Of a DNA stretch of 46,292 nt, positions 443-37,951 are shown in pieces (positions within the stretch are counted from its first letter, which is position 1; each line of letters begins with the position of its first letter). Position numbers and translations under genes: made by a program. Source of the stretch: a virus; the IMG/VR virus record IMGVR_UViG_3300031464_000003; one strand, written 5' to 3'. The notes under the pieces are model-generated. The model did not search any database and was not told the origin of the DNA. It worked only from the letters and a program-made list of their open reading frames with translations.

Positions 443-1175
443 GTGGGTTGTACTCCCAGACTTCCAGGTCCCTTTTCATGACGAGGGGTTTCTGGATGAG
501 CTGGTGGAGTACATCAAGTGGGCGAAGCCCAACAGGGGTTTGCTCCACGTTGGCGATGAGATCGACCAGCCTCAGACGTCCCGCTACTGCAAGGGCAAGG
601 CTGGCGAGTTCGAGGGAACGCTACAGGAGCACATTGACATGACGCGGGAGGTGATGGCCCGTTTTCGGGCCGCCATCCCGCGGACCAGGGAGTTCCACGT
701 GAGCCGGTCCAACCACACAGACCGGCTAGAGAAGTACGTCAAGGATTACGCGCCCGCGATCGCGGGCCTGCGGGAAGTGCAGACTGAGGTTCTGCTTGGC
801 TACGACAAGCTGGGGATTATCTACCACCGGCAGCCGTGGGAGTTCGCTCCTGGCTGGATGCTGGCCCACGGGGATGAGGGCAGCCTGTCACGGATCGCCG
901 GCCGCACGGCCGCCAACCTCGCGGCCAAGTGGGGCAAGAGCGTGGTCTGTGGTCACACCCACAGGTTGGGGCTCATCCCCCACAGCGTGGGCGTGAACGG
1001 TGAGCTGACCACCTACTGGGGCGTGGAGGTTGGTCACGCCATGGATGTACGCAAGGCCAGCTACCTGAAGGCCGGTTCCGCGGACTGGCAGCAGGGGTTT
1101 GGCTTGGTGTTTCGCAACGGGGACCGCGTGACCGTCCAGGCGGTCCCCCGCGAAGGGTTGGGTGGTTTCCGGTGA
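432..1175 (+). CDS. Calcineurin-like metallophosphoesterase
   Basis: 247 aa carrying the ordered motifs DFQVPFHD, GDEID, SNHTDR, HGDE and GHTH. Confidence 0.8.
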   Translation: MALEWVVLPDFQVPFHDEGFLDELVEYIKWAKPNRGLLHVGDEIDQPQTSRYCKGKAGEFEGTLQEHIDMTREVMARFRAAIPRTREFHVSRSNHTDRLEKYVKDYAPAIAGLREVQTEVLLGYDKLGIIYHRQPWEFAPGWMLAHGDEGSLSRIAGRTAANLAAKWGKSVVCGHTHRLGLIPHSVGVNGELTTYWGVEVGHAMDVRKASYLKAGSADWQQGFGLVFRNGDRVTVQAVPREGLGGFR

Positions 1176-1861
1176 GCCTGAGGGAGGAGGACATTGAGTT
1201 CCTGACGCCGCTCGTGGCGCAGGTGGCGAACCACCTCAAGGGCAAGTATCCGATGCTGGATCGAGCGGATCTAGCTCAGGAGTGCTGGGCGTGGGCGCTG
1301 TCCCGCCCCAAGAAGGTTGCCGAGTTGGCCGACGAGGGCAACGAGGCGCTGACCGTCTGGCTGATGAGGCAGGCGGTGCGCGCCTGGGCTGAGAAGGAGA
1401 AGGCGGCCCGGGCCGGGTACAGCGTTGACGACCTCTACTGGTACACCACCAGGGAGCTGGCCGTGCTCGTGGAGGCGATGCTTGACCCTGCGGCTTGGCA
1501 CAAGCCCCTCCAGGACGGCCTGGAGGGGCGCTCTGGCGGCGGAGATCCGGCCGTAGGGGGCAACTGGGTGGCCACCCTGGCGGACGTCTCTAGGGCTTTC
1601 TCCAGGCTGTCTGAGCCTGACCGCCGGCTACTGTTCCAGCGGTACCGCATGGGCTTGTCCGCCCAGGAGTTGGCCCGCTGGTATGGGGTGAGCAAGGCAA
1701 CCACCTACCGGTGGGTGGAGGGTGCCCTGCGGCGCCTCCAGGAGCAGTTGGGTGGCGAGCGTCCCGAGGTGGATCGGGTGGATGACCCGTCGCCGATTCC
1801 GCGGAGGCACCGCAGAGCCTCTGACCTAGCGACGATTGCTAAACAGTATGACGACGAGTAA
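1172..1861 (+). CDS. Sigma-70-family (ECF-like) sigma factor candidate
   Basis: GTGA start/stop overlap with the upstream gene. C-terminal region-4-like HTH: RLLFQRYRMGLSAQELARWYGVSKATTYRWVEGALRRLQ. It is the last gene of the rightward operon, before the hairpin zone. Confidence 0.6.
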   Translation: MSLREEDIEFLTPLVAQVANHLKGKYPMLDRADLAQECWAWALSRPKKVAELADEGNEALTVWLMRQAVRAWAEKEKAARAGYSVDDLYWYTTRELAVLVEAMLDPAAWHKPLQDGLEGRSGGGDPAVGGNWVATLADVSRAFSRLSEPDRRLLFQRYRMGLSAQELARWYGVSKATTYRWVEGALRRLQEQLGGERPEVDRVDDPSPIPRRHRRASDLATIAKQYDDE

Positions 1862-2469: not shown

Positions 2470-2498
2470 ATAGTAGCATTGGAAGTTGCTTTTGTCAA
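2470..2498 (-). promoter_or_regulatory. Sigma-70-type promoter TTGACA-17-TACTAT
   Basis: Minus-strand reading: gcTTGACAaaagcaacttccaatgcTACTATtcg. The -35 is at 2493-2498 and the -10 at 2470-2475. Confidence 0.65.
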
Positions 2499-8141: not shown

Positions 8142-8195
8142 GTGAGTCCCCATGACGGGGACCGGATCATGCCGGTCCCCACCAAGGCGACTCAC
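8142..8195 (-). repeat. Extended intercistronic hairpin, family C
   Basis: GTGAGTCCCCATGAC-[ggggaccgg atcatg ccggtcccc]-ACCAAGGCGACTCAC. The flanks match 7852-7905 but the inner stem differs. Confidence 0.8.
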
Positions 8196-8380
8196 TCTGC
8201 GCTCTCCCTAGCCCAGGCATATGGCAGGTGTCCACCCTTGGCTAGCCATTCGTCAAGCGCCTCCGCGAATTCAGCGATGTCTTCTGCGACGGCCGCCCTA
8301 GCTTCCGTAGCGCTTTCCGGGAGTGACTTAAATGTGTGAATCGCTCCGCGAAGTTCCCGCAGGGTGACGTCAGGATCCAT
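8192..8380 (-). CDS. Hypothetical protein (62 aa from ATG 8380)
   Basis: GAATGGGAGGTATGGTC precedes ATG 8380. Confidence 0.5.
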   Translation of the reverse strand: MDPDVTLRELRGAIHTFKSLPESATEARAAVAEDIAEFAEALDEWLAKGGHLPYAWARESAE

Positions 8381-8404
8381 GACCATACCTCCCATTCATC
8401 GTGC

Positions 8405-9336: not shown

Positions 9337-9842
9337 TCCTACTCTCCCATTCCGTGCGTGCACTTGCCCTACCTACACTCCCCATCCGCGGCAGGATGGC
9401 GAGCCTAGGCAGGGGCCACGCGGCGGGCCAGCGGATACGCCGAGAAAGGCACTCTGCCTTAGGTTGACCGCGCCATTGGTCGGCGCCTCAGTGACGCTAG
9501 CAACGCTGGGTGAGACTCCCGCACACGTGGCCACGCACGCTCTCTATGGCCACGGCTCCACTGTGGAGTTGTCAAACTTCATATCCGCTCCGAGGGTCCG
9601 CCACCGTGGCCGCTACGCGGCCCTTGCGGGGGTTTCCCTCGCGGGTTGGTTACATCATGGCGGAGTCGCCATCAGGATGCAACCATCGCGATGAAACTTC
9701 TCACATAGTGAGACAGCATGGCTGTGACCTGGGCAAACGCGGCGCGGTGCGCGCCGCGAGTGGCGATGACAGAGAAGGCTCTGAGAGCGCGTTGGTGGGA
9801 TGGTTTGTGTGTGGCTTTCGGCCGCAACGGAAGCGGCGCGTT

Positions 9843-9959: not shown

Positions 9960-10027
9960 ACCGACTTTCGGTCGGGACCGTTTCGTTTCGGTCCTGACCG
10001 AAAGTTTCTGTGACCGTTTCCGGTCAC
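9960..10027. promoter_or_regulatory. Operator-like array: seven alternating GACCG/CGGTC half-sites ending in the palindrome GTGACCG-TTTC-CGGTCAC
   Basis: Component palindromes: ACCGA-ctt-TCGGT (9960-9972), CGGTC-gg-GACCG (9969-9980), GGACCG-n8-CGGTCC (9975-9994), TCGGTC-ct-GACCGA (9988-10001), GTGACCG-tttc-CGGTCAC (10010-10027). The array ends 5 nt before the -35 of the 10033 promoter. Confidence 0.5.
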
Positions 10028-10032
10028 GGGTC

Positions 10033-10061
10033 TTGACTACCCGTCGGTAACATGGTATAAT
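10033..10061 (+). promoter_or_regulatory. Near-perfect sigma-70-type promoter TTGACT-17-(TGg)TATAAT
   Basis: tcTTGACTacccgtcggtaacaTGgTATAATg. The -35 is at 10033-10038, the extended -10 TG at 10053-10054 and the -10 at 10056-10061. Confidence 0.7.
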
Positions 10062-10086
10062 GACCCCCGGTTTTTAACCGGGGGTC
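10062..10086. promoter_or_regulatory. 25-bp near-perfect palindrome over the predicted +1
   Basis: GACCCCCGGTT-ttt-AACCGGGGGTC begins 1 nt after the -10 hexamer. Confidence 0.5.
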
Positions 10087-10094
10087 CCCCAACC

Positions 10095-10165
10095 CCCCCA
10101 TGACTCCCGCCACAAAATCGCGGCTAATTGGTGAGCCGCTGGCGGTCGTCATGGGGGTCTTTTCT
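10095..10165 (+). terminator. Rod-like structure with a U-rich tail (terminator-like end of a roughly 100-nt leader RNA)
   Basis: cccccatgac (10095-10104) pairs with gtcatggggg (10148-10157). Inner helices are ccgcc/ggcgg and gcggct/agccgc. The structure is followed by TCTTTTCT. Confidence 0.4.
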
Positions 10166-10201: not shown

Positions 10202-10255
10202 TATTTCCGCAGGTCAGAGGGTGTTTCACAAGTTCACAAAAGATTTTACCTTTGA

Positions 10256-10435
10256 CCGTGAGACAGATCAATTTTTTCTCACGGACGTATAGGGTGAGGG
10301 GTTCTAGCGAACCCCTCTAAGCCCACGAAGTGGGCTAGTGAACGAAGTGAACGTTAGAGGGGTGAAGCTAGAACCCCGAACCCAGCGGTGAGGGAACTCG
10401 ATGTTCCCGAACCGCTACCCCCTTGGAGGGGGGTA
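10256..10435 (+). other. Series of six stem-loops in the leader upstream of terL
   Basis: Stems at 10256-10284 (8 bp), 10296-10317 (8 bp), 10320-10336 (7 bp), 10359-10377 (5 bp), 10384-10416 (6+6 bp) and 10416-10435 (7 bp). A direct repeat GTGAACG x2 lies at 10338-10353. Confidence 0.8.
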
Positions 10436-34340: not shown

Positions 34341-34640
34341 CTATTTGCGTTTCGGATTCCTGTTCACGATCGTGCCGCGCCCCGCGCGCTTGTAGACCAG
34401 GCCCTTTTCCACTAGGACCTGGAGCGCCCTGCGCACTGTGCCGCGGGCGAGGTTGTACTCCTGCATCAGTTGTTTCTCGCTCGGCAGGAGTGTGCCCGGC
34501 TCCCACTCGCCGCTTTTGATCCTCTCCTCCAGGTCTGCGGCGAGCTGCTCGTAATACCAATCCGCTGTGTTCCGCTTGATCACATCTCTCGGCCCCACCC
34601 TGTCCACGCTAGGACAGGTGTAGCTGTCTAGCCGGCTCAT
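34341..34640 (-). CDS. GntR-family winged-HTH regulator (repressor candidate)
   Basis: LPSEKQLMQEYNLARGTVRRALQVLVEKGLVYKRAGRGTIV is a classic GntR N-terminal domain. Only 99 aa, so there is no effector domain. The start ATG 34640 is uncertain. Confidence 0.7.
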   Translation of the reverse strand: MSRLDSYTCPSVDRVGPRDVIKRNTADWYYEQLAADLEERIKSGEWEPGTLLPSEKQLMQEYNLARGTVRRALQVLVEKGLVYKRAGRGTIVNRNPKRK

Positions 34641-35118: not shown

Positions 35119-35349
35119 CTAGGCGATAGGAATCTCGTCCAGGTCCTCGTATACCCGGAAGCGCTTCCGAGGCTCTGAGGCGGCGTCTAGCGCCTTCCAG
35201 AGGGCCTTGAGTGGCTTCGCGTGCTCTGGGCAGAGCAGGGGGCGCCGCCGCTCGCCATCGGGGTCCACGAGGCTCCATTTCTTGAGGCCCCGCGACTCGC
35301 CGCATCCGCGGACGTCGCAGACGACCCGACGCTCAACGATCACCGCCAT
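35119..35349 (-). CDS. Hypothetical protein downstream of int (76 aa); RDF/Xis role possible but unsupported
   Basis: SD GAGGG 4 nt upstream. Overlaps the int 3' end by 17 nt. Contains C-x4-C ... C-x2-H. Confidence 0.5.
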   Translation of the reverse strand: MAVIVERRVVCDVRGCGESRGLKKWSLVDPDGERRRPLLCPEHAKPLKALWKALDAASEPRKRFRVYEDLDEIPIA

Positions 35350-36598
35350 ACGCCCTCAACTCCACTACGTTCTTGGCTCGGAGGCTCGGGTACATGTAGC
35401 GCCCCCGCATCAGCAGGTCGCGGTCCAGCCGGTCTGGCTCACATCCAATGTAGTGCTCGGTCATCATCTGGGTCTTGTGGTGGAGGGCGGCCTGGACGGG
35501 GCGTATGGGGTGGGCCACCGGCCGGACTACCCTGCCGGTGGCCGGGTCCATCCACGGCTCCATCGCCTGTAGCTCGTCATACCAGGCCCGAGCGCCCGAC
35601 CGCCGCAGGGTGTGCATACCCTCACCCTTGAGGGTCCCCTCCGGGGAATCATCGACCGGGAAGTCGATCTTCCTCAGCGCAGCCTTGGCGACCTTCTCCA
35701 GGTGGGTCCGTAGAGGCTGCGACGGGTCTAGCTGGGGGCGGGGAACCGGACCAGGCTGAATGAACCTGGACCCCGGGGGCCGCACGCCCACTCGCTTCCT
35801 CTTGTGGGGGATCAGCGGCCACTCGGGCCGAAGCGGCTCGCCGACGTCCCAGGTATAGAACTCCAGCCACTCGCGTAGCTCCTCGTCCAGCTCCTTCGGG
35901 ATGGGCATCAGGTCATCCTTCTTGGTCTTCTGAACCCGGACGAGGATGGAGCCGCCTTTGAGATCCAACCGCCCAATGGTCAGGGTGGCCATCTCGCTCT
36001 GGCGGAGGAACAGGTAGAGCCCGAGAGCGATCATGATCCGGTCCCGCTTGTGCTCCTGCTCGGCTGCGTCCAACAGCCGCGGGAAGTCGGAGACGTGGAC
36101 GCGCTTGCGCTCCCGCTCGAACGGCTCGAACGCCTCGATGTCCCACATCGGGTCGGAGTCCGGCGGCATCAGCCGGGACCTGCGGCACCACTTGAAGAAG
36201 GTGTTCAGGACCGACCGGTGAACGTTCAGCGATGACGCCTGACGGGTGCGGCCGGCCTCCGCGAAGAAGTTGATCACATGCCGCTCGTCGATGTTCTTGA
36301 CGAGGAGGTTCCCGGTAGTGCTGAGGAACCTATTGAGAGTCTGGGTGTGGTTCTTGATCGTGTTAGGCTGCCGCCTCTTGACTCTCATCGAGGCCAGGTA
36401 CTGGTCGATCGCCCAGCTCAACCGGCCTGGGCTCTCCCCAACTCTGGATGCCACAACCGCCTCCTTTAGGTAGGACTTCGCGGCAATAGTAGCATCCGGC
36501 GTTGACCTGCGGTGCACCAGGAGATCCTCGGACCGCATGATTGTCGAGGAAGTCCTTCTACCGGACGCGACCTGCCGCTTTGCAGACGACCCGGGCAT
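35333..36598 (-). CDS. int: Tyrosine integrase
   Basis: Catalytic signature in order: LFLRQSE (Arg), HTLRRSGA (His-x-x-Arg), HHKTQMMTEHY (His ... Tyr). N-terminal SAM-like core-binding region. Start uncertain (ATG 36598 or 36538). Confidence 0.9.
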   Translation of the reverse strand: MPGSSAKRQVASGRRTSSTIMRSEDLLVHRRSTPDATIAAKSYLKEAVVASRVGESPGRLSWAIDQYLASMRVKRRQPNTIKNHTQTLNRFLSTTGNLLVKNIDERHVINFFAEAGRTRQASSLNVHRSVLNTFFKWCRRSRLMPPDSDPMWDIEAFEPFERERKRVHVSDFPRLLDAAEQEHKRDRIMIALGLYLFLRQSEMATLTIGRLDLKGGSILVRVQKTKKDDLMPIPKELDEELREWLEFYTWDVGEPLRPEWPLIPHKRKRVGVRPPGSRFIQPGPVPRPQLDPSQPLRTHLEKVAKAALRKIDFPVDDSPEGTLKGEGMHTLRRSGARAWYDELQAMEPWMDPATGRVVRPVAHPIRPVQAALHHKTQMMTEHYIGCEPDRLDRDLLMRGRYMYPSLRAKNVVELRAYGGDR

Positions 36599-36750
36599 CG
36601 TAGCACGTCAGAAACTGTCTCGTATAGAGTCATACTCCGGACGCATCATGGCGTCCGCCGCAAGCCGATCTGTTGCGATCGGATCTTGACGTCCCCCCGA
36701 AGCAAGCTCACACTACTTGCTGTGAGGTTGCAGAAAGCCAGGAGATTGAC

Positions 36751-37191
36751 ATGCCCCCTAGACGTCAAGGGCCAGACAAGGAGTGGCTCGCCGATCGGGT
36801 CGCTGAAGGGTACAGCGACCAGGAGATCGCGAACCTCTGGGCCGAAAAGACTGGAGTCCTGTTGACCCGCCAGGGGATCAACCGGCTAGTCAACAAGTGG
36901 GACCTGAGAGGCGAAGAAAAGAAGCGTCAGCGTTACGACGATCTACTCCCCTGGAAGGTCAAGGCCGAGCACGACGGCCACTGGTACCAGCGACTCCTCC
37001 GCGTCGAAGCGAAGCTGAGACGCGGGGAGGAGGTACCGGAGGTCTGGAAGGAACGGGTCGAGAGGTGGAAGGCGAAGTTGAAGGAGTTGAACGCAGTTGT
37101 CGCTTATGTTCCAGATAGTCCGAATGGCTTCTACTTGGTGAAGGCTAAGCCTGGGGAAGAGCTGATCACGCTGAGACAGCGTGGAGACTGA
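36751..37191 (+). CDS. HTH DNA-binding protein divergent from int (146 aa)
   Basis: SD AGGAG precedes ATG 36751. HTH-like segment YSDQEIANLWAEKTGVLLTRQGINRLVNKW. Confidence 0.55.
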   Translation: MPPRRQGPDKEWLADRVAEGYSDQEIANLWAEKTGVLLTRQGINRLVNKWDLRGEEKKRQRYDDLLPWKVKAEHDGHWYQRLLRVEAKLRRGEEVPEVWKERVERWKAKLKELNAVVAYVPDSPNGFYLVKAKPGEELITLRQRGD

Positions 37192-37193
37192 CA

Positions 37194-37221
37194 GGGCCGG
37201 CGCCATCAACGGTGCCGGCCC
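37194..37221 (+). terminator. Terminator after the HTH gene
   Basis: 11-bp stem gggccggcgcc/ggtgccggccc followed by CTTCTTC. Confidence 0.7.
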
Positions 37222-37281
37222 CTTCTTCATGTCCAGGAACGACAACGCCCGGCCTTTGATGGCCGGGCTGGTCTCTCCCCT

Positions 37282-37312
37282 TACACGCGCGCACGCGCAC
37301 GCGCGCGTATAT
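37282..37312. repeat. 31-nt perfectly alternating purine-pyrimidine tract (Z-DNA-prone)
   Basis: tacacgcgcgcacgcgcacgcgcgcgtatat alternates Py/Pu at every position. Confidence 0.9.
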
Positions 37313-37362
37313 CTAGTAACTATTAACTAACACTATTAGTAACTTACTACTAGTACTAGTTA
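37308..37362. other. AT-rich island (13 G/C in 55 nt, 24% GC) with short internal repeats
   Basis: tatatctagtaactattaactaacactattagtaacttactactagtactagtta. TAGTAAC, ACTATTA and ACTAGT each occur twice. Confidence 0.9.
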
Positions 37363-37482
37363 GGCGGCCCTTCAGGGCCGCCCTACTACCTACCTCTTCT
37401 CTGGCGGCCCTTCTGAGGGCCGCCTACCTACCAGTCCTGTCCGGCGGCCCCTGAGGGGCCGCCCTGGTCCAGCTCCCTCACT
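37363..37482. repeat. Three tandem 40-bp units, each starting with the hairpin GGCGGCCC-loop-GGGCCGCC (iteron-like)
   Basis: Units start at 37363, 37403 and 37443. The hairpin halves are conserved, and CTACCTACC-like tails follow units 1 and 2. Confidence 0.85.
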
Positions 37483-37527: not shown

Positions 37528-37555
37528 ATGATACACAACGTCGGGTGCTTGTCAA
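37528..37555 (-). promoter_or_regulatory. Sigma-70-type promoter TTGACA-16-TATCAT (leftward)
   Basis: Minus-strand reading: cTTGACAagcacccgacgttgtgTATCATgcg. The spacer resembles that of the 10033 promoter (acccgtcgg vs acccgacg). Confidence 0.6.
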
Positions 37556-37565
37556 GTCGGGAGTT

Positions 37566-37583
37566 GTGACCGGTTCCGGTCGC
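37566..37583. promoter_or_regulatory. Second copy of the 18-bp operator (GTGACCG-gttc-CGGTCGC)
   Basis: Matches GTGACCG-tttc-CGGTCAC at 10010-10027. Lies 10 nt upstream of the -35 of the 37528 promoter and is flanked by the direct repeats GAGTTG. Confidence 0.5.
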
Positions 37584-37682
37584 GAGTTGCAAACTCCTCC
37601 GGATGCAAGTAACATGTGCCCTGCACCTCGAACCCCTGGGTGCAACAGAGTGACGTAGCTCACATGACGAGTCCGTTACGGC

Positions 37683-37727
37683 CCCTGTTAACAAACAGGG
37701 TCCTTACTAGATAATCCCTGACCAGGG
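37683..37727 (+). promoter_or_regulatory. Early rightward promoter candidate TTAACA-16-GATAAT bracketed by CCCTG/CAGGG inverted repeats
   Basis: The -35 is at 37688-37693 and the -10 at 37710-37715. IR CCCTGTT-aaca-AACAGGG (37683-37700) overlaps the -35. IR CCCTG-ac-CAGGG (37716-37727) abuts the -10. Confidence 0.55.
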
Positions 37728-37819
37728 CATAGTTTGTGGCTCAACTTTCTAACGAAGTAACGAGCCACTAGTTACGGCCAACTTGTGAAGAACCGGTCGC
37801 ATGAGAAGGGCAGGACCAC

Positions 37820-37951
37820 TTGACTGCGCCAAGGGGGGTAGAGGCTGAACTGGAGGTGACCGGGAGCAAAGAGGCGGAAGAGTTCGAGAACCTCCTCGAC
37901 CACCTCCACGAGGCTGTCTACGAGGACATCGACCAGATCCCACGGGTCTGA
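37820..37951 (+). CDS. Possible small acidic protein (43 aa from TTG 37820, or 31 aa from GTG 37856)
   Basis: Strong G/C bias at third codon positions (…EAEEFENLLDHLHEAVYEDIDQIPRV). Weak start signals. Confidence 0.3.
   Translation: MTAPRGVEAELEVTGSKEAEEFENLLDHLHEAVYEDIDQIPRV

What the first reader, a model, noticed from the sequence alone, without database searches (positions are those of the whole stretch)
9960..10086. Super-consensus promoter behind a seven-half-site GACCG/CGGTC operator array, with a paralogous copy at 37.5 kb
Seen:
- TTGACT-17-TGgTATAAT (10033-10061) is almost the textbook sigma-70 promoter, in a genome where such AT-rich hexamers are rare.
- Directly upstream are seven alternating GACCG/CGGTC half-sites. 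They end in the palindrome GTGACCG-tttc-CGGTCAC (10010-10027).
- A 25-bp palindrome GACCCCCGGTT-ttt-AACCGGGGGTC covers the predicted +1.
- The same 18-bp operator (GTGACCG-gttc-CGGTCGC, 37566-37583) sits upstream of a second consensus promoter, TTGACA-16-TATCAT (37528-37555, minus strand). Its spacer is also similar (acccgtcgg vs acccgacg).

Inference: one DNA-binding protein co-regulates both promoters. Candidates are the GntR-like protein (34341-34640; GntR operators are typically GT-Nx-AC palindromes) and the HTH protein (36751-37191). This may be the central lysis/lysogeny or late-gene switch.
Basis: partly seen in the sequence, partly recalled or inferred. Interest (0 to 1): 0.65.

Follow-up and report, generated by a model that had tools for sequence, protein, structure and literature searches.

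The report
Shared operator at two phage promoters
A temperate Streptomyces-type phage carries the same 18-base palindrome next to its two strongest promoters, most likely a binding site for its own repressor; this is an ordinary kind of phage switch in an unusual place, the genome's probable terminal-repeat region.

Summary
P1 (TTGACT-17-TGgTATAAT, 10033-10061) and P2 (TTGACA-16-TATCAT, 37555-37528, minus strand) are the only two 11/12 sigma-70 matches in the genome (0.01 expected). GACCG-N4-CGGTC occurs only twice, once beside each promoter.

The "seven half-sites" are six exact pentamers: two CGGTC-N2-GACCG palindromes 20 bp apart, then the 18-mer.

New context:
- The window is a complete temperate phage related to lytic BF-cluster Streptomyces podoviruses.
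- P1 lies in the non-coding region upstream of terL. Weak homology places this region inside the terminal repeat.
- The palindrome over +1 belongs to a block conserved in relatives that lack P1.
- The two sites align best in the same orientation (20/23). At 37.5 kb the palindrome sits between back-to-back divergent promoters, just downstream of an immunity-repressor gene.
- A relative with a 35%-identical repressor has a different motif in the same two zones. It has no GntR gene.

Best reading (about 0.5): a shared operator, bound most likely by the immunity repressor rather than the GntR-like protein.

Nothing is shown experimentally. This is a new member of a known kind, of moderate interest.

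The parts
9969..9980 (.). Upstream palindrome 1, CGGTC-GG-GACCG (core GGTC-N2-GACC)
   Evidence: Exact matches to CGGTC-N2-GACCG occur only here and at 9989.
9989..10000 (.). Upstream palindrome 2, CGGTC-CT-GACCG, extended to TTTCGGT-CCTG-ACCGAAA (9986-10003). It lies 20 bp from palindrome 1.
   Evidence: With palindrome 1 it forms an inverted repeat with 17-nt arms (9964-9980 / 9989-10005).
10010..10027 (.). 18-bp perfect palindrome GTGACCG-TTTC-CGGTCAC, the putative operator copy 1. It is centred about -49.5 from the predicted P1 start and ends 5 bp before the -35.
   Evidence: The shared block 10008-10030 is 20/23 identical to 37564-37586.
10033..10061 (+). P1, a near-consensus sigma-70 (HrdB-type) promoter: TTGACT-17-TGgTATAAT. 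Predicted start is about 10068.
   Evidence: 11/12; expected count 0.01. Conserved in the 98-99% variant L056. Absent at this position in relatives rel57 and L004.
10062..10086 (.). 25-bp perfect palindrome GACCCCCGGTT-TTT-AACCGGGGGTC. Its left arm and AT centre belong to a non-coding block conserved among relatives.
   Evidence: One substitution in the outer right arm in variant L056.
10061..10140 (+). Conserved non-coding block (TGACCCCCGG..TTTTWAA.., ATGACTCCCNCCACAAAA, GGCTAATTGG). The inferred right boundary of the terminal repeat is near 10102/10103.
   Evidence: Alignment to rel57 has z=14; also aligns to L004. The boundary is transferred from the Dennebes DTR by weak collinear blocks only, z about 2.
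10095..10165 (+). Long hairpin followed by UCUUUUCU, a predicted intrinsic terminator about 100 nt downstream of P1.
   Evidence: repeat I2; MFE -54 kcal/mol, z -4.4. Not conserved in rel57.
37528..37555 (-). P2(-), a leftward near-consensus promoter TTGACA-16-TATCAT. It points at three hairpins, the 3' end of the repressor gene and, beyond that, int.
   Evidence: The analogous leftward promoter in rel57 is TTGACA-17-TACACT.
37566..37583 (.). 18-bp palindrome GTGACCG-GTTC-CGGTCGC (1 mismatch), the putative operator copy 2. It lies between the two divergent -35 boxes: 10 bp from the left one and 3 bp from the right one.
37587..37615 (+). P2(+), a weak rightward promoter-like site TTGCAA-17-TAACAT (8/12) facing the early replication genes. 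The operator is centred about -47.5 from its predicted start, close to the spacing at P1.
   Evidence: A second rightward candidate, TTAACA-16-GATAAT, is at 37688-37715.
36751..37191 (+). [quoted passage not shown] It is the prime candidate binder.
   Evidence: phrog_3929 'transcriptional repressor', E 3.6e-19. 30-34% identity to annotated immunity repressors of 172 Streptomyces phages. Model pLDDT 81; best PDB fold hit is 7r6r, the cluster A2 mycobacteriophage repressor-DNA complex.
34341..34640 (-). GntR-like winged-HTH-only protein (99 aa). It is the alternative binder, especially for the two CGGTC-N2-GACCG sites.
   Evidence: Pfam GntR, E 3e-19. Best PDB matches are YvoA/NagR and DasR, the HutC subfamily. 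The gene is absent from relatives L048 and rel57.

Best explanation
The 18-bp palindrome GTGACCG-N4-CGGTC(A/G)C is a shared operator for a phage-encoded regulator. The most likely binder is the immunity repressor encoded at 36751-37191.

One copy sits 5 bp upstream of the -35 of P1. P1 is a near-consensus host-sigma promoter in the non-coding, probably terminal-repeat, region that reads toward terL. The other copy sits between two back-to-back divergent promoters just downstream of the repressor gene. One of these points left toward int; the other points right toward the early replication genes.

A bound regulator would cover about -58 to -41. From there it would hinder RNA polymerase (alpha-CTD and sigma region 4 contacts) at all three promoters, so these strong constitutive promoters would be silent in a lysogen.

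The two CGGTC-N2-GACCG palindromes 20 bp apart upstream of P1 are auxiliary sites. They could act by cooperative binding of the same protein, or they could be targets of the GntR-like protein.

Shown: the sequence facts, their statistics, the gene context and the parallel in relatives. Inferred: that a protein binds, which protein it is, and that the effect is repression.
For: - The two promoters are the only 11/12 sigma-70 matches in the genome (expected 0.01).
- The only two GACCG-N4-CGGTC sites lie 5 and 10 bp from their -35 boxes.
- Identity extends to 20/23 in the same orientation.
- RNA-level roles do not fit both sites. No plus-strand gene lies upstream of 10010, and no minus-strand gene reads across 37566.
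- Copy 2 lies 375 bp downstream of a gene homologous to annotated Streptomyces-phage immunity repressors. Its predicted fold is closest to the cluster A mycobacteriophage repressor bound to DNA.
- In relative rel57 (TerL 70%, repressor 35% identical) the most repeated 14-mer of the whole 45.8-kb genome is ACTGCACATGTCAA, which contains a TTGACA -35. It occurs three times: at two divergent promoters just after the repressor gene, and at one promoter in the terL-upstream non-coding region. All 12 copies of the heptamer CATGTCA lie in those two zones.
- The two-zone design is therefore conserved while the motif changes with the repressor. rel57 and the L048 lineage lack the GntR gene.
- The 98-99% variant L056 keeps every element.
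Against: - There is no binding, transcription-start or expression data.
- The repressor's closest solved relative binds asymmetric 13-mers as a monomer at many sites (PMC9283540). Here the site is palindromic, there are only two copies, and no stoperator-like repeat exists.
- The operator lies upstream of the -35, not over the core promoter. An activating role, or no effect, cannot be excluded.
- There is no copy near the repressor's own promoter.
- Palindromes with 7-nt arms and a 4-nt spacer are common in this genome (28 observed against 5 in shuffles). The geometry alone, and the matching palindrome in L048, therefore carry little weight.
- Short-repeat arrays at the equivalent place exist in the terminal repeat of a lytic relative that has no repressor.
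- All other contigs of this phage are identical at P2, so there is no variation to test.
Confidence: 0.5

Rival explanations
1. The GntR-like winged-HTH protein (34341-34640) is the binder. It would recognise the GACC/GGTC cores of the two upstream CGGTC-N2-GACCG palindromes and the 18-mer, and regulate P1 and P2.
For: - Its wHTH is closest to the HutC-type regulators YvoA/NagR and DasR. From my own knowledge, their dre operators have the core GGTC-TA-GACC.
- Exact CGGTC-N2-GACCG occurs only at 9969 and 9989.
- GGTC-N2-GACC has only 4 hits in the genome, two of them here.
Against: - The 18-mer has its half-sites in the opposite arrangement (GACCG-N4-CGGTC), which is not a HutC-type geometry.
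- The protein has no dimerisation or effector domain (99 aa).
- The gene sits in a variable slot and is missing from relatives that keep the two-zone motif design.
- No such motif lies near its own gene.
- The count of 4 GGTC-N2-GACC sites is not significant (11 of 100 shuffles reach 4).
Confidence: 0.15
2. The array and palindromes at 9960-10086 are terminal-repeat elements for packaging, concatemer processing or replication. On this reading they are not transcriptional operators, and the copy at 37.5 kb is a secondary or unrelated use.
For: - terL is T7-like, and its nearest isolated relatives are BF-cluster podoviruses with direct terminal repeats of 253-254 bp that end about 380 bp before terL.
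- The Dennebes repeat contains five ATGTCC units at 10-bp spacing, at the same relative position.
- The GACCC..TTTTAA block after P1 is conserved in rel57 and L004, which lack P1.
- L004 and rel57 also have a palindrome 52-54 bp upstream of that block.
Against: - It does not explain why the same 18-23-bp block sits between divergent promoters in the immunity region.
- The array motif does not follow TerL relatedness. rel57 (70% TerL) shares its motif type with Dennebes (40% TerL), not with the window.
- The homology used to place the repeat boundary is weak (z about 2).
- Palindromes are dense in these regions, so positional coincidence is cheap.
Confidence: 0.17
3. The palindromes are structural hairpins, acting as bidirectional terminators or insulators. 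They would belong to the genome's abundant hairpin families and have no dedicated binding protein.
For: - The genome has a five-fold excess of palindromes with 7-nt arms and a 4-nt spacer.
- 9986-10003 scores as terminator-like.
- The A-to-G change in copy 2 keeps a G-U pair in plus-strand RNA.
Against: - No transcript is expected to cross both copies on the same strand.
- The loops are not the UUCG/GNRA types of the GC-rich intercistronic hairpins.
- Two hairpins sharing 13 of 14 stem bases and their flanks, each beside a top promoter, is not expected for generic hairpins.
Confidence: 0.1

Closest known systems
Lambdoid CI/Cro-type repressor-operator control of early promoters
   Same: - Palindromic sites of about 17-18 bp are repeated at separate promoter regions.
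- One site lies beside the repressor gene.
- Divergent promoters share an operator region.
   Different: - The site lies just upstream of the -35, not over the core promoter.
- Each region has only one full copy.
- The second region is upstream of terL, in a probable terminal repeat.
- The candidate repressor is unrelated in sequence to CI.
Cluster A mycobacteriophage (L5/TipsytheTRex) immunity repressor and stoperators (PDB 7r6r; PMC9283540)
   Same: - It is the best fold match of the candidate repressor model.
- Both proteins have two domains with an N-terminal HTH.
- In relative rel57 the repeated motif is an asymmetric 14-mer ending in TGTCAA(G/A) that overlaps a TTGACA -35, as the L5 operator at Pleft does (L5 site recalled from my own knowledge).
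   Different: - In the window the site is palindromic, not asymmetric.
- There are two copies, not more than twenty.
- No stoperator-like repeat exists.
- The fold match is weak: 25% identity in the structural alignment, TM-score about 0.4.
Immunity cassette of BD-cluster Streptomyces siphoviruses (for example Janus gp30)
   Same: - The repressor is homologous at 30-34% identity.
- The gene order is the same: repressor, small ORF, exonuclease, DnaB-like helicase, primase.
   Different: - No equivalent palindrome was found downstream of the Janus repressor gene.
- I found no report of operators for this repressor family.
- The virion and packaging modules are different.
Direct terminal repeats of BF-cluster (Beephvirinae) Streptomyces podoviruses, and more loosely the T7 terminal region with strong host promoters near the entering end
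   Same: - terL is T7-like.
- A long non-coding region precedes terL.
- It contains short-repeat arrays at helical spacing and a conserved block at the repeat's right edge.
   Different: - BF phages are not annotated with an integrase or repressor.
- They show no consensus sigma-70 promoter at this position.
- The terminal repeat of the window itself has not been demonstrated.
GntR/HutC dre operators (DasR, NagR/YvoA)
   Same: - The two upstream sites have a GGTC-N2-GACC core.
- The phage encodes a HutC-like wHTH.
   Different: - The protein has no effector or dimerisation domain.
- The shared 18-mer has the half-sites inverted, with a 4-bp spacer.

Membership tests
Sigma-70 (HrdB-type) promoter | -35 TTGACA and -10 TATAAT hexamers separated by 16-18 bp | tested here: met
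   P1 scores 11/12 with a TG extension. P2(-) scores 11/12. The genome-wide expectation is 0.01.
Sigma-70 (HrdB-type) promoter | A transcription start 6-8 nt downstream of the -10 | not testable with these tools
Phage repressor-operator switch (CI type) | The same palindromic site recurs at separately located promoters that the repressor controls | tested here: met
   Two copies only, one beside each of the two top promoters. A block around them is 20/23 identical.
Phage repressor-operator switch (CI type) | The operator overlaps the core promoter (-35 to +1) | tested here: not met
   The 18-mer ends 5 bp (P1), 10 bp (P2-) and 3 bp (P2+) upstream of the -35.
Phage repressor-operator switch (CI type) | A repressor gene lies adjacent to an operator region | tested here: met
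   An immunity-repressor homologue at 36751-37191 lies 375 bp upstream of copy 2.
Phage repressor-operator switch (CI type) | Demonstrated binding and repression | not testable with these tools
   This needs EMSA or footprinting and reporter assays.
Cluster A stoperator system | Two-domain repressor fold (HTH plus Stoperator domain) | tested here: inconclusive
   The top Foldseek hit is 7r6r, with E 1e-3 and probability 1.0 but TM-score only 0.39-0.43. The model has pLDDT 81 and was built from 5 sequences.
Cluster A stoperator system | An asymmetric 13-mer present at many (more than 20) oriented sites across the genome | tested here: not met
   A k-mer census finds no such repeat. The shared site is palindromic and has two copies.
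GntR/HutC dre operator | A HutC-type winged-HTH regulator is present | tested here: met
   Pfam GntR, E 3e-19. Best PDB matches are YvoA/NagR and DasR.
GntR/HutC dre operator | A palindrome with the core GGTC-N2-GACC | tested here: inconclusive
   Met by the sites at 9969 and 9989. Not met by the shared 18-mer, whose half-sites are in the opposite arrangement.
GntR/HutC dre operator | A C-terminal effector-binding and dimerisation domain | tested here: not met
   The protein is 99 aa and consists of the wHTH only.
BF-cluster direct terminal repeat | A sequence duplicated at both physical genome ends, about 250 bp long and ending a few hundred bp before terL | tested here: inconclusive
   The Dennebes DTR is 254 bp and BF DTRs are 253 bp. 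The mapping to the window rests on short collinear blocks, z about 2. Read termini were unavailable.
BF-cluster direct terminal repeat | An internal array of short repeats at helical spacing near the right edge of the repeat | tested here: met
   Window: sites centred at 9974.5, 9994.5 and 10018.5. Dennebes: five ATGTCC units at 145-187.
Lambda PR'-tR' type late antitermination cassette | A strong constitutive promoter followed by a terminator upstream of the late operon, together with a Q-like antiterminator | tested here: inconclusive
   The promoter and a terminator-like hairpin are present. No Q-like gene appeared among the ORFs scanned, but the scan was not exhaustive.

The most novel reading that the evidence does not exclude
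P1 lies inside the terminal repeat at the end of the genome that enters the cell first. Like the A1-A3 promoters of T7, it is the host-polymerase promoter that starts transcription, and possibly transcription-driven DNA entry, on infection. By placing its operator there, the resident prophage's repressor would block a superinfecting genome at this first step, as well as silencing the prophage's own early promoters. That would link a podovirus terminal repeat directly to lysogenic immunity.
Probability: 0.1. Interest if true: 0.7.

Novelty: new member of a known kind. Interest (0 to 1): 0.35.

Why it matters
If confirmed, this gives the operator sequence and promoter layout for a large family of Streptomyces-phage immunity repressors. 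The family is annotated in 172 isolated phages, and I found no report of its operators. It also documents a temperate relative of the lytic BF-cluster podoviruses, in which a repressor-controlled consensus promoter sits in the probable terminal-repeat region. In practice, the P1 and P2 fragments together with the repressor could serve as a compact, tightly repressible promoter system for actinobacteria. As biology, it is a standard kind of switch rather than a new principle.

Tried and rejected
- DNA searches of the isolated-phage collection with the region and with the whole window found no useful relatives.
- An exact-pattern scan of viral contigs for the operator plus -35 found nothing.
- terL-based scans of viral and metagenome contigs gave relatives at 53% identity or less, plus one 96% fragment without the upstream region. 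None carries GACCG-N4-CGGTC.
- A repressor scan of viral contigs found nothing. An exonuclease-profile scan found only distant hits.
- Other contigs of the same phage are 100% identical, so they give no covariation. Contigs of the 66%-repressor relative (L044-L046) stop before P2.
- Walking the L048-lineage contig toward terL showed that it ends inside terL. Its terminal region could not be checked for a second copy of TTGTGAATTCATTCACAA.
- An L5-like stoperator reading was rejected because no repeated asymmetric motif exists.
- An asymmetric site shared by the window's promoters just after the -35 (CCCG-W-CG) was rejected because its register varies by 1-4 nt.
- The palindrome at the same offset in L004 has no remote second copy. 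This positional match was downweighted once palindromes with 7-nt arms and a 4-nt spacer proved common.
- BD-cluster phage Janus shows no comparable palindrome after its repressor gene.
- No homologue of the small terminase annotated in Dennebes was found in the window or in rel57.
Transcription starts, coverage and read termini could not be examined.
- No whole genome or handle was held for the window or for the Logan and metagenome records.

Full report
**What the window is**

The first and last 127 bases are identical, so the window is a circularly assembled complete genome of 46,165 bp. It is a metagenomic contig, and identical copies occur in several other samples. No whole host genome is held for it.

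Gene content:
- A minus-strand block at 9363-2617, including an HNH endonuclease (8192-8395) and a WhiB-like protein (2617-2871).
- A plus-strand virion and packaging block from terL (ORF from 10495; called start 10612) to about 34.3 kb. It has no tape-measure gene.
- A lysogeny module: GntR-like wHTH (34341-34640, minus), a 76-aa protein, a tyrosine integrase (35333-36598, minus) and a repressor-like protein (36751-37191, plus).
- A plus-strand early block with exonuclease, DnaB-like helicase and primase. It runs across the contig ends to a metallophosphoesterase and a sigma-like protein (1172-1861).

TerL is about 40% identical to that of BF-cluster (Beephvirinae) Streptomyces phages. [quoted passage not shown] No close relative exists among isolated phages.

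**Checking the observation**

- My own genome-wide scan found four promoters scoring 10/12 or better and only two scoring 11/12: P1 and P2(-). One hundred dinucleotide shuffles gave means of 0.54 and 0.01 respectively.
- GACCG-N4-CGGTC has two hits against 0.26 expected.
- The full 18-mer has hits with 0 and 1 mismatches, none with 2, and chance-level hits with 3.
- Six exact pentamers fall in 57 bp. Only 1 of 300 shuffles reaches six in a 62-bp span.
- By simple reasoning, the chance that both rare 14-mers fall within 40 bp of the two top promoters is about 1e-5.

- The seventh half-site is imperfect.
- The array is two CGGTC-N2-GACCG palindromes with centres 20 bp apart, followed 24 bp later by the 18-mer. 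The first two form one inverted repeat with 17-nt arms.

**Anatomy at 37.5 kb**

The best local alignment of the two loci is plus strand against plus strand: TGTGACCGTTTCCGGTCACGGGT against TGTGACCGGTTCCGGTCGCGAGT, 20 of 23.
- In that orientation the palindrome is followed after 3 bp by TTGCAA-17-TAACAT (37587-37615, 8/12). This promoter faces the early genes. The operator is centred about -47.5 from its predicted start, compared with -49.5 at P1.
- The strong leftward promoter has its -35 10 bp on the other side of the palindrome.
- One palindrome therefore sits between back-to-back divergent promoters.
- The leftward transcript would meet three GC hairpins, then run antisense through the repressor gene and sense into int.
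- The rightward side has a second candidate promoter, TTAACA-16-GATAAT, at 37688-37715.

**Anatomy at 10 kb**

P1 lies in a 1.25-kb non-coding region between the minus-strand block and terL.
- Downstream of P1 the RNA would form a 5' hairpin and then a long hairpin (10095-10157) followed by UCUUUUCU (z -4.4). This suggests a transcript of about 100 nt unless the terminator is read through.
- The stretch from the -10 onward is strongly conserved in a relative with 70% TerL identity, called rel57 here (locus L057; z = 14). It is recognisable in L004, which has 53% TerL identity. The conserved blocks are TGACCCCCGG..TTTTWAA.., ATGACTCCCNCCACAAAA and GGCTAATTGG.
- Neither relative has a sigma-70 promoter at this position. 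P1 is therefore lineage-specific, and the left arm of the palindrome over +1 belongs to an older conserved element rather than to P1 regulation.
- In BF-cluster phage Dennebes the 254-bp terminal repeat ends at GAGTG|AGTCCCC, within a chain of short blocks collinear with this region.
- That chain would put the right edge of a repeat near 10102/10103, and P1, the 18-mer and the array inside the repeat.
- The alignment statistics for this transfer are weak, z about 2, so I treat it as an inference.
- Dennebes carries five ATGTCC units at 10-bp spacing at the corresponding place in its repeat, and nowhere else in its genome.

**Who binds?**

The repressor-like protein:
- It matches PHROG 3929, 'transcriptional repressor'.
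- It is 30-34% identical to proteins annotated as immunity repressors in 172 Streptomyces phages, mostly of the Janus/Alvy type. Those phages share the gene order repressor, exonuclease, DnaB, primase.
- That family binds asymmetric 13-mers as monomers through two domains (PMC9283540). This does not sit easily with a palindromic site, and the window has no stoperator-like repeat.

The GntR-like protein:
- It is a 99-aa wHTH closest to the HutC-type regulators YvoA/NagR and DasR.
- From my own knowledge, their operators have a GGTC-TA-GACC core. The two upstream 12-mers resemble this core; the 18-mer does not.

**Comparative test**

I walked along the 47-kb contig of rel57. It has an integrase and a repressor 35% identical to the window's, in the same arrangement, and no GntR gene.
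- The most repeated 12- to 14-mer in its whole genome is ACTGCACATGTCAA, the reverse complement of a TTGACA -35 plus eight further bases.
- That 14-mer occurs three times: at two divergent promoters just after the repressor gene, and once at a leftward promoter in the terL-upstream non-coding region.
- All 12 copies of the heptamer CATGTCA lie in these two zones. They include the spacers of the int and repressor promoters and the edge of the conserved terminal block.
- The design 'one phage-specific motif shared by the immunity region and the terL-upstream region' is therefore conserved, while the motif itself differs along with the repressor.

A third lineage, L048 (repressor 46% identical, no GntR), has a perfect TTGTGAA-TTCA-TTCACAA palindrome at the P2-equivalent place. 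I give its geometry little weight, because perfect palindromes with 7-nt arms and a 4-nt spacer are common in these genomes: 28 in the window against 5 in shuffles. The L048 contig ends inside terL, so its terminal region could not be checked.

The 98-99% variant L056 keeps all elements. Its only nearby changes are one substitution between sites and one in the outer arm of the +1 palindrome.

**Weighing the readings**

- An RNA-level role is unlikely, because no transcript should cross both copies on the same strand.
- A purely packaging or replication role fits the location and the arrays in lytic relatives. It does not explain the copy between the immunity-region promoters.
- The array motif also fails to follow TerL relatedness.
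- A shared operator explains both sites and the parallel in rel57.
- I put about 0.5 on a shared operator bound by the immunity repressor, 0.15 on the GntR-like protein, about 0.17 on a terminal-repeat function and 0.1 on structural hairpins.
- The direction of control is inferred only. I favour repression, because the promoters are near-consensus and need no activator.

**Comparison with what is known, and novelty**

Functionally this works like a classical phage repressor-operator arrangement. It fails the feature 'operator overlaps the core promoter'. It also fails the defining stoperator features of the family that its repressor fold resembles. It is best filed as a new member of a known kind.

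Points of some interest:
- It is a temperate relative of lytic BF-cluster podoviruses, carrying a BD-type immunity and replication cassette.
- A consensus host promoter with an operator sits in the probable terminal repeat.
- It offers a candidate operator for a widely annotated repressor family; a literature search found no report of operators for it.

**Limits**

The P2 region shows no sequence variation among the available contigs.

Noticed in passing
window 9699-9715: The 17-mer TCTCACATAGTGAGACA (palindrome TCTCAC-ATA-GTGAGA) is identical in relatives L004 and L002, whose TerL is only 53% identical. There it lies on the other side of the conserved GACCC block. GTGAGACAG recurs at 10259-10267.
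   Followed up: partly
window 10243-10271 (minus strand): A leftward promoter-like site, TTGATC-17-TAAAAT (9/12), faces P1. The predicted starts are about 170 bp apart and convergent. No good leftward sigma-70 promoter was found between 9364 and 10000 for the minus-strand gene block.
   Followed up: partly
window 37079-37441: The 3' end of the repressor gene and the AT-rich and hairpin region after it are 94-97.5% identical in contigs L044-L046. The repressor in those contigs is otherwise only 66% identical and their int region 79% identical. This looks like a recombination boundary or a conserved site such as attP.
   Followed up: no
window 36666-36713: An 18-bp palindrome, CCGATC-TGTTGC-GATCGG, sits 3 bp upstream of TTGACG-17-CACACT, the likely promoter of the repressor gene. 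The layout matches P1 and P2, but the sequence is different.
   Followed up: no
window 37784-37800: A degenerate third copy of the operator's right half, TGTGAAGAACCGGTCGC. CCGGTCGC is identical to 37576-37583. It lies about 20 bp upstream of a TTGACT at 37821.
   Followed up: no
whole window; loci L060 (Dennebes), L066 (Janus): The genome is mosaic. The virion, terL, metallophosphoesterase and sigma-like genes resemble lytic BF-cluster podoviruses. The repressor-exonuclease-DnaB-primase cassette resembles temperate BD-cluster siphoviruses. Relative to Dennebes, the replication genes are inverted.
   Followed up: partly
window 1172-1861: A sigma-like HTH protein (PHROG 'sigma-K factor', E 8.5e-13) is 26% identical to Dennebes gp74. 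Late transcription may depend on it rather than on P1.
   Followed up: no
whole window and rel57: There is a large excess of perfect palindromes with 7-nt arms and a 4-nt spacer: 28 in the window against about 5 in shuffles, and 60 in the relative rel57.
   Followed up: partly
window 2470-2498 (minus strand): A third strong promoter, TTGACA-17-TACTAT with a TG extension (10/12), has no GACCG-type palindrome. It is followed by a hairpin and a small hydrophobic ORF starting at about 2337.
   Followed up: no
L004 3600-3990: In the 53% TerL relative, the region upstream of terL contains several tRNA-like T-arm sequences (GGTTCGAGCCC, GGTTCGAATCC, GGTTCAAGTCC). The window has only hairpins at this place.
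   Followed up: no
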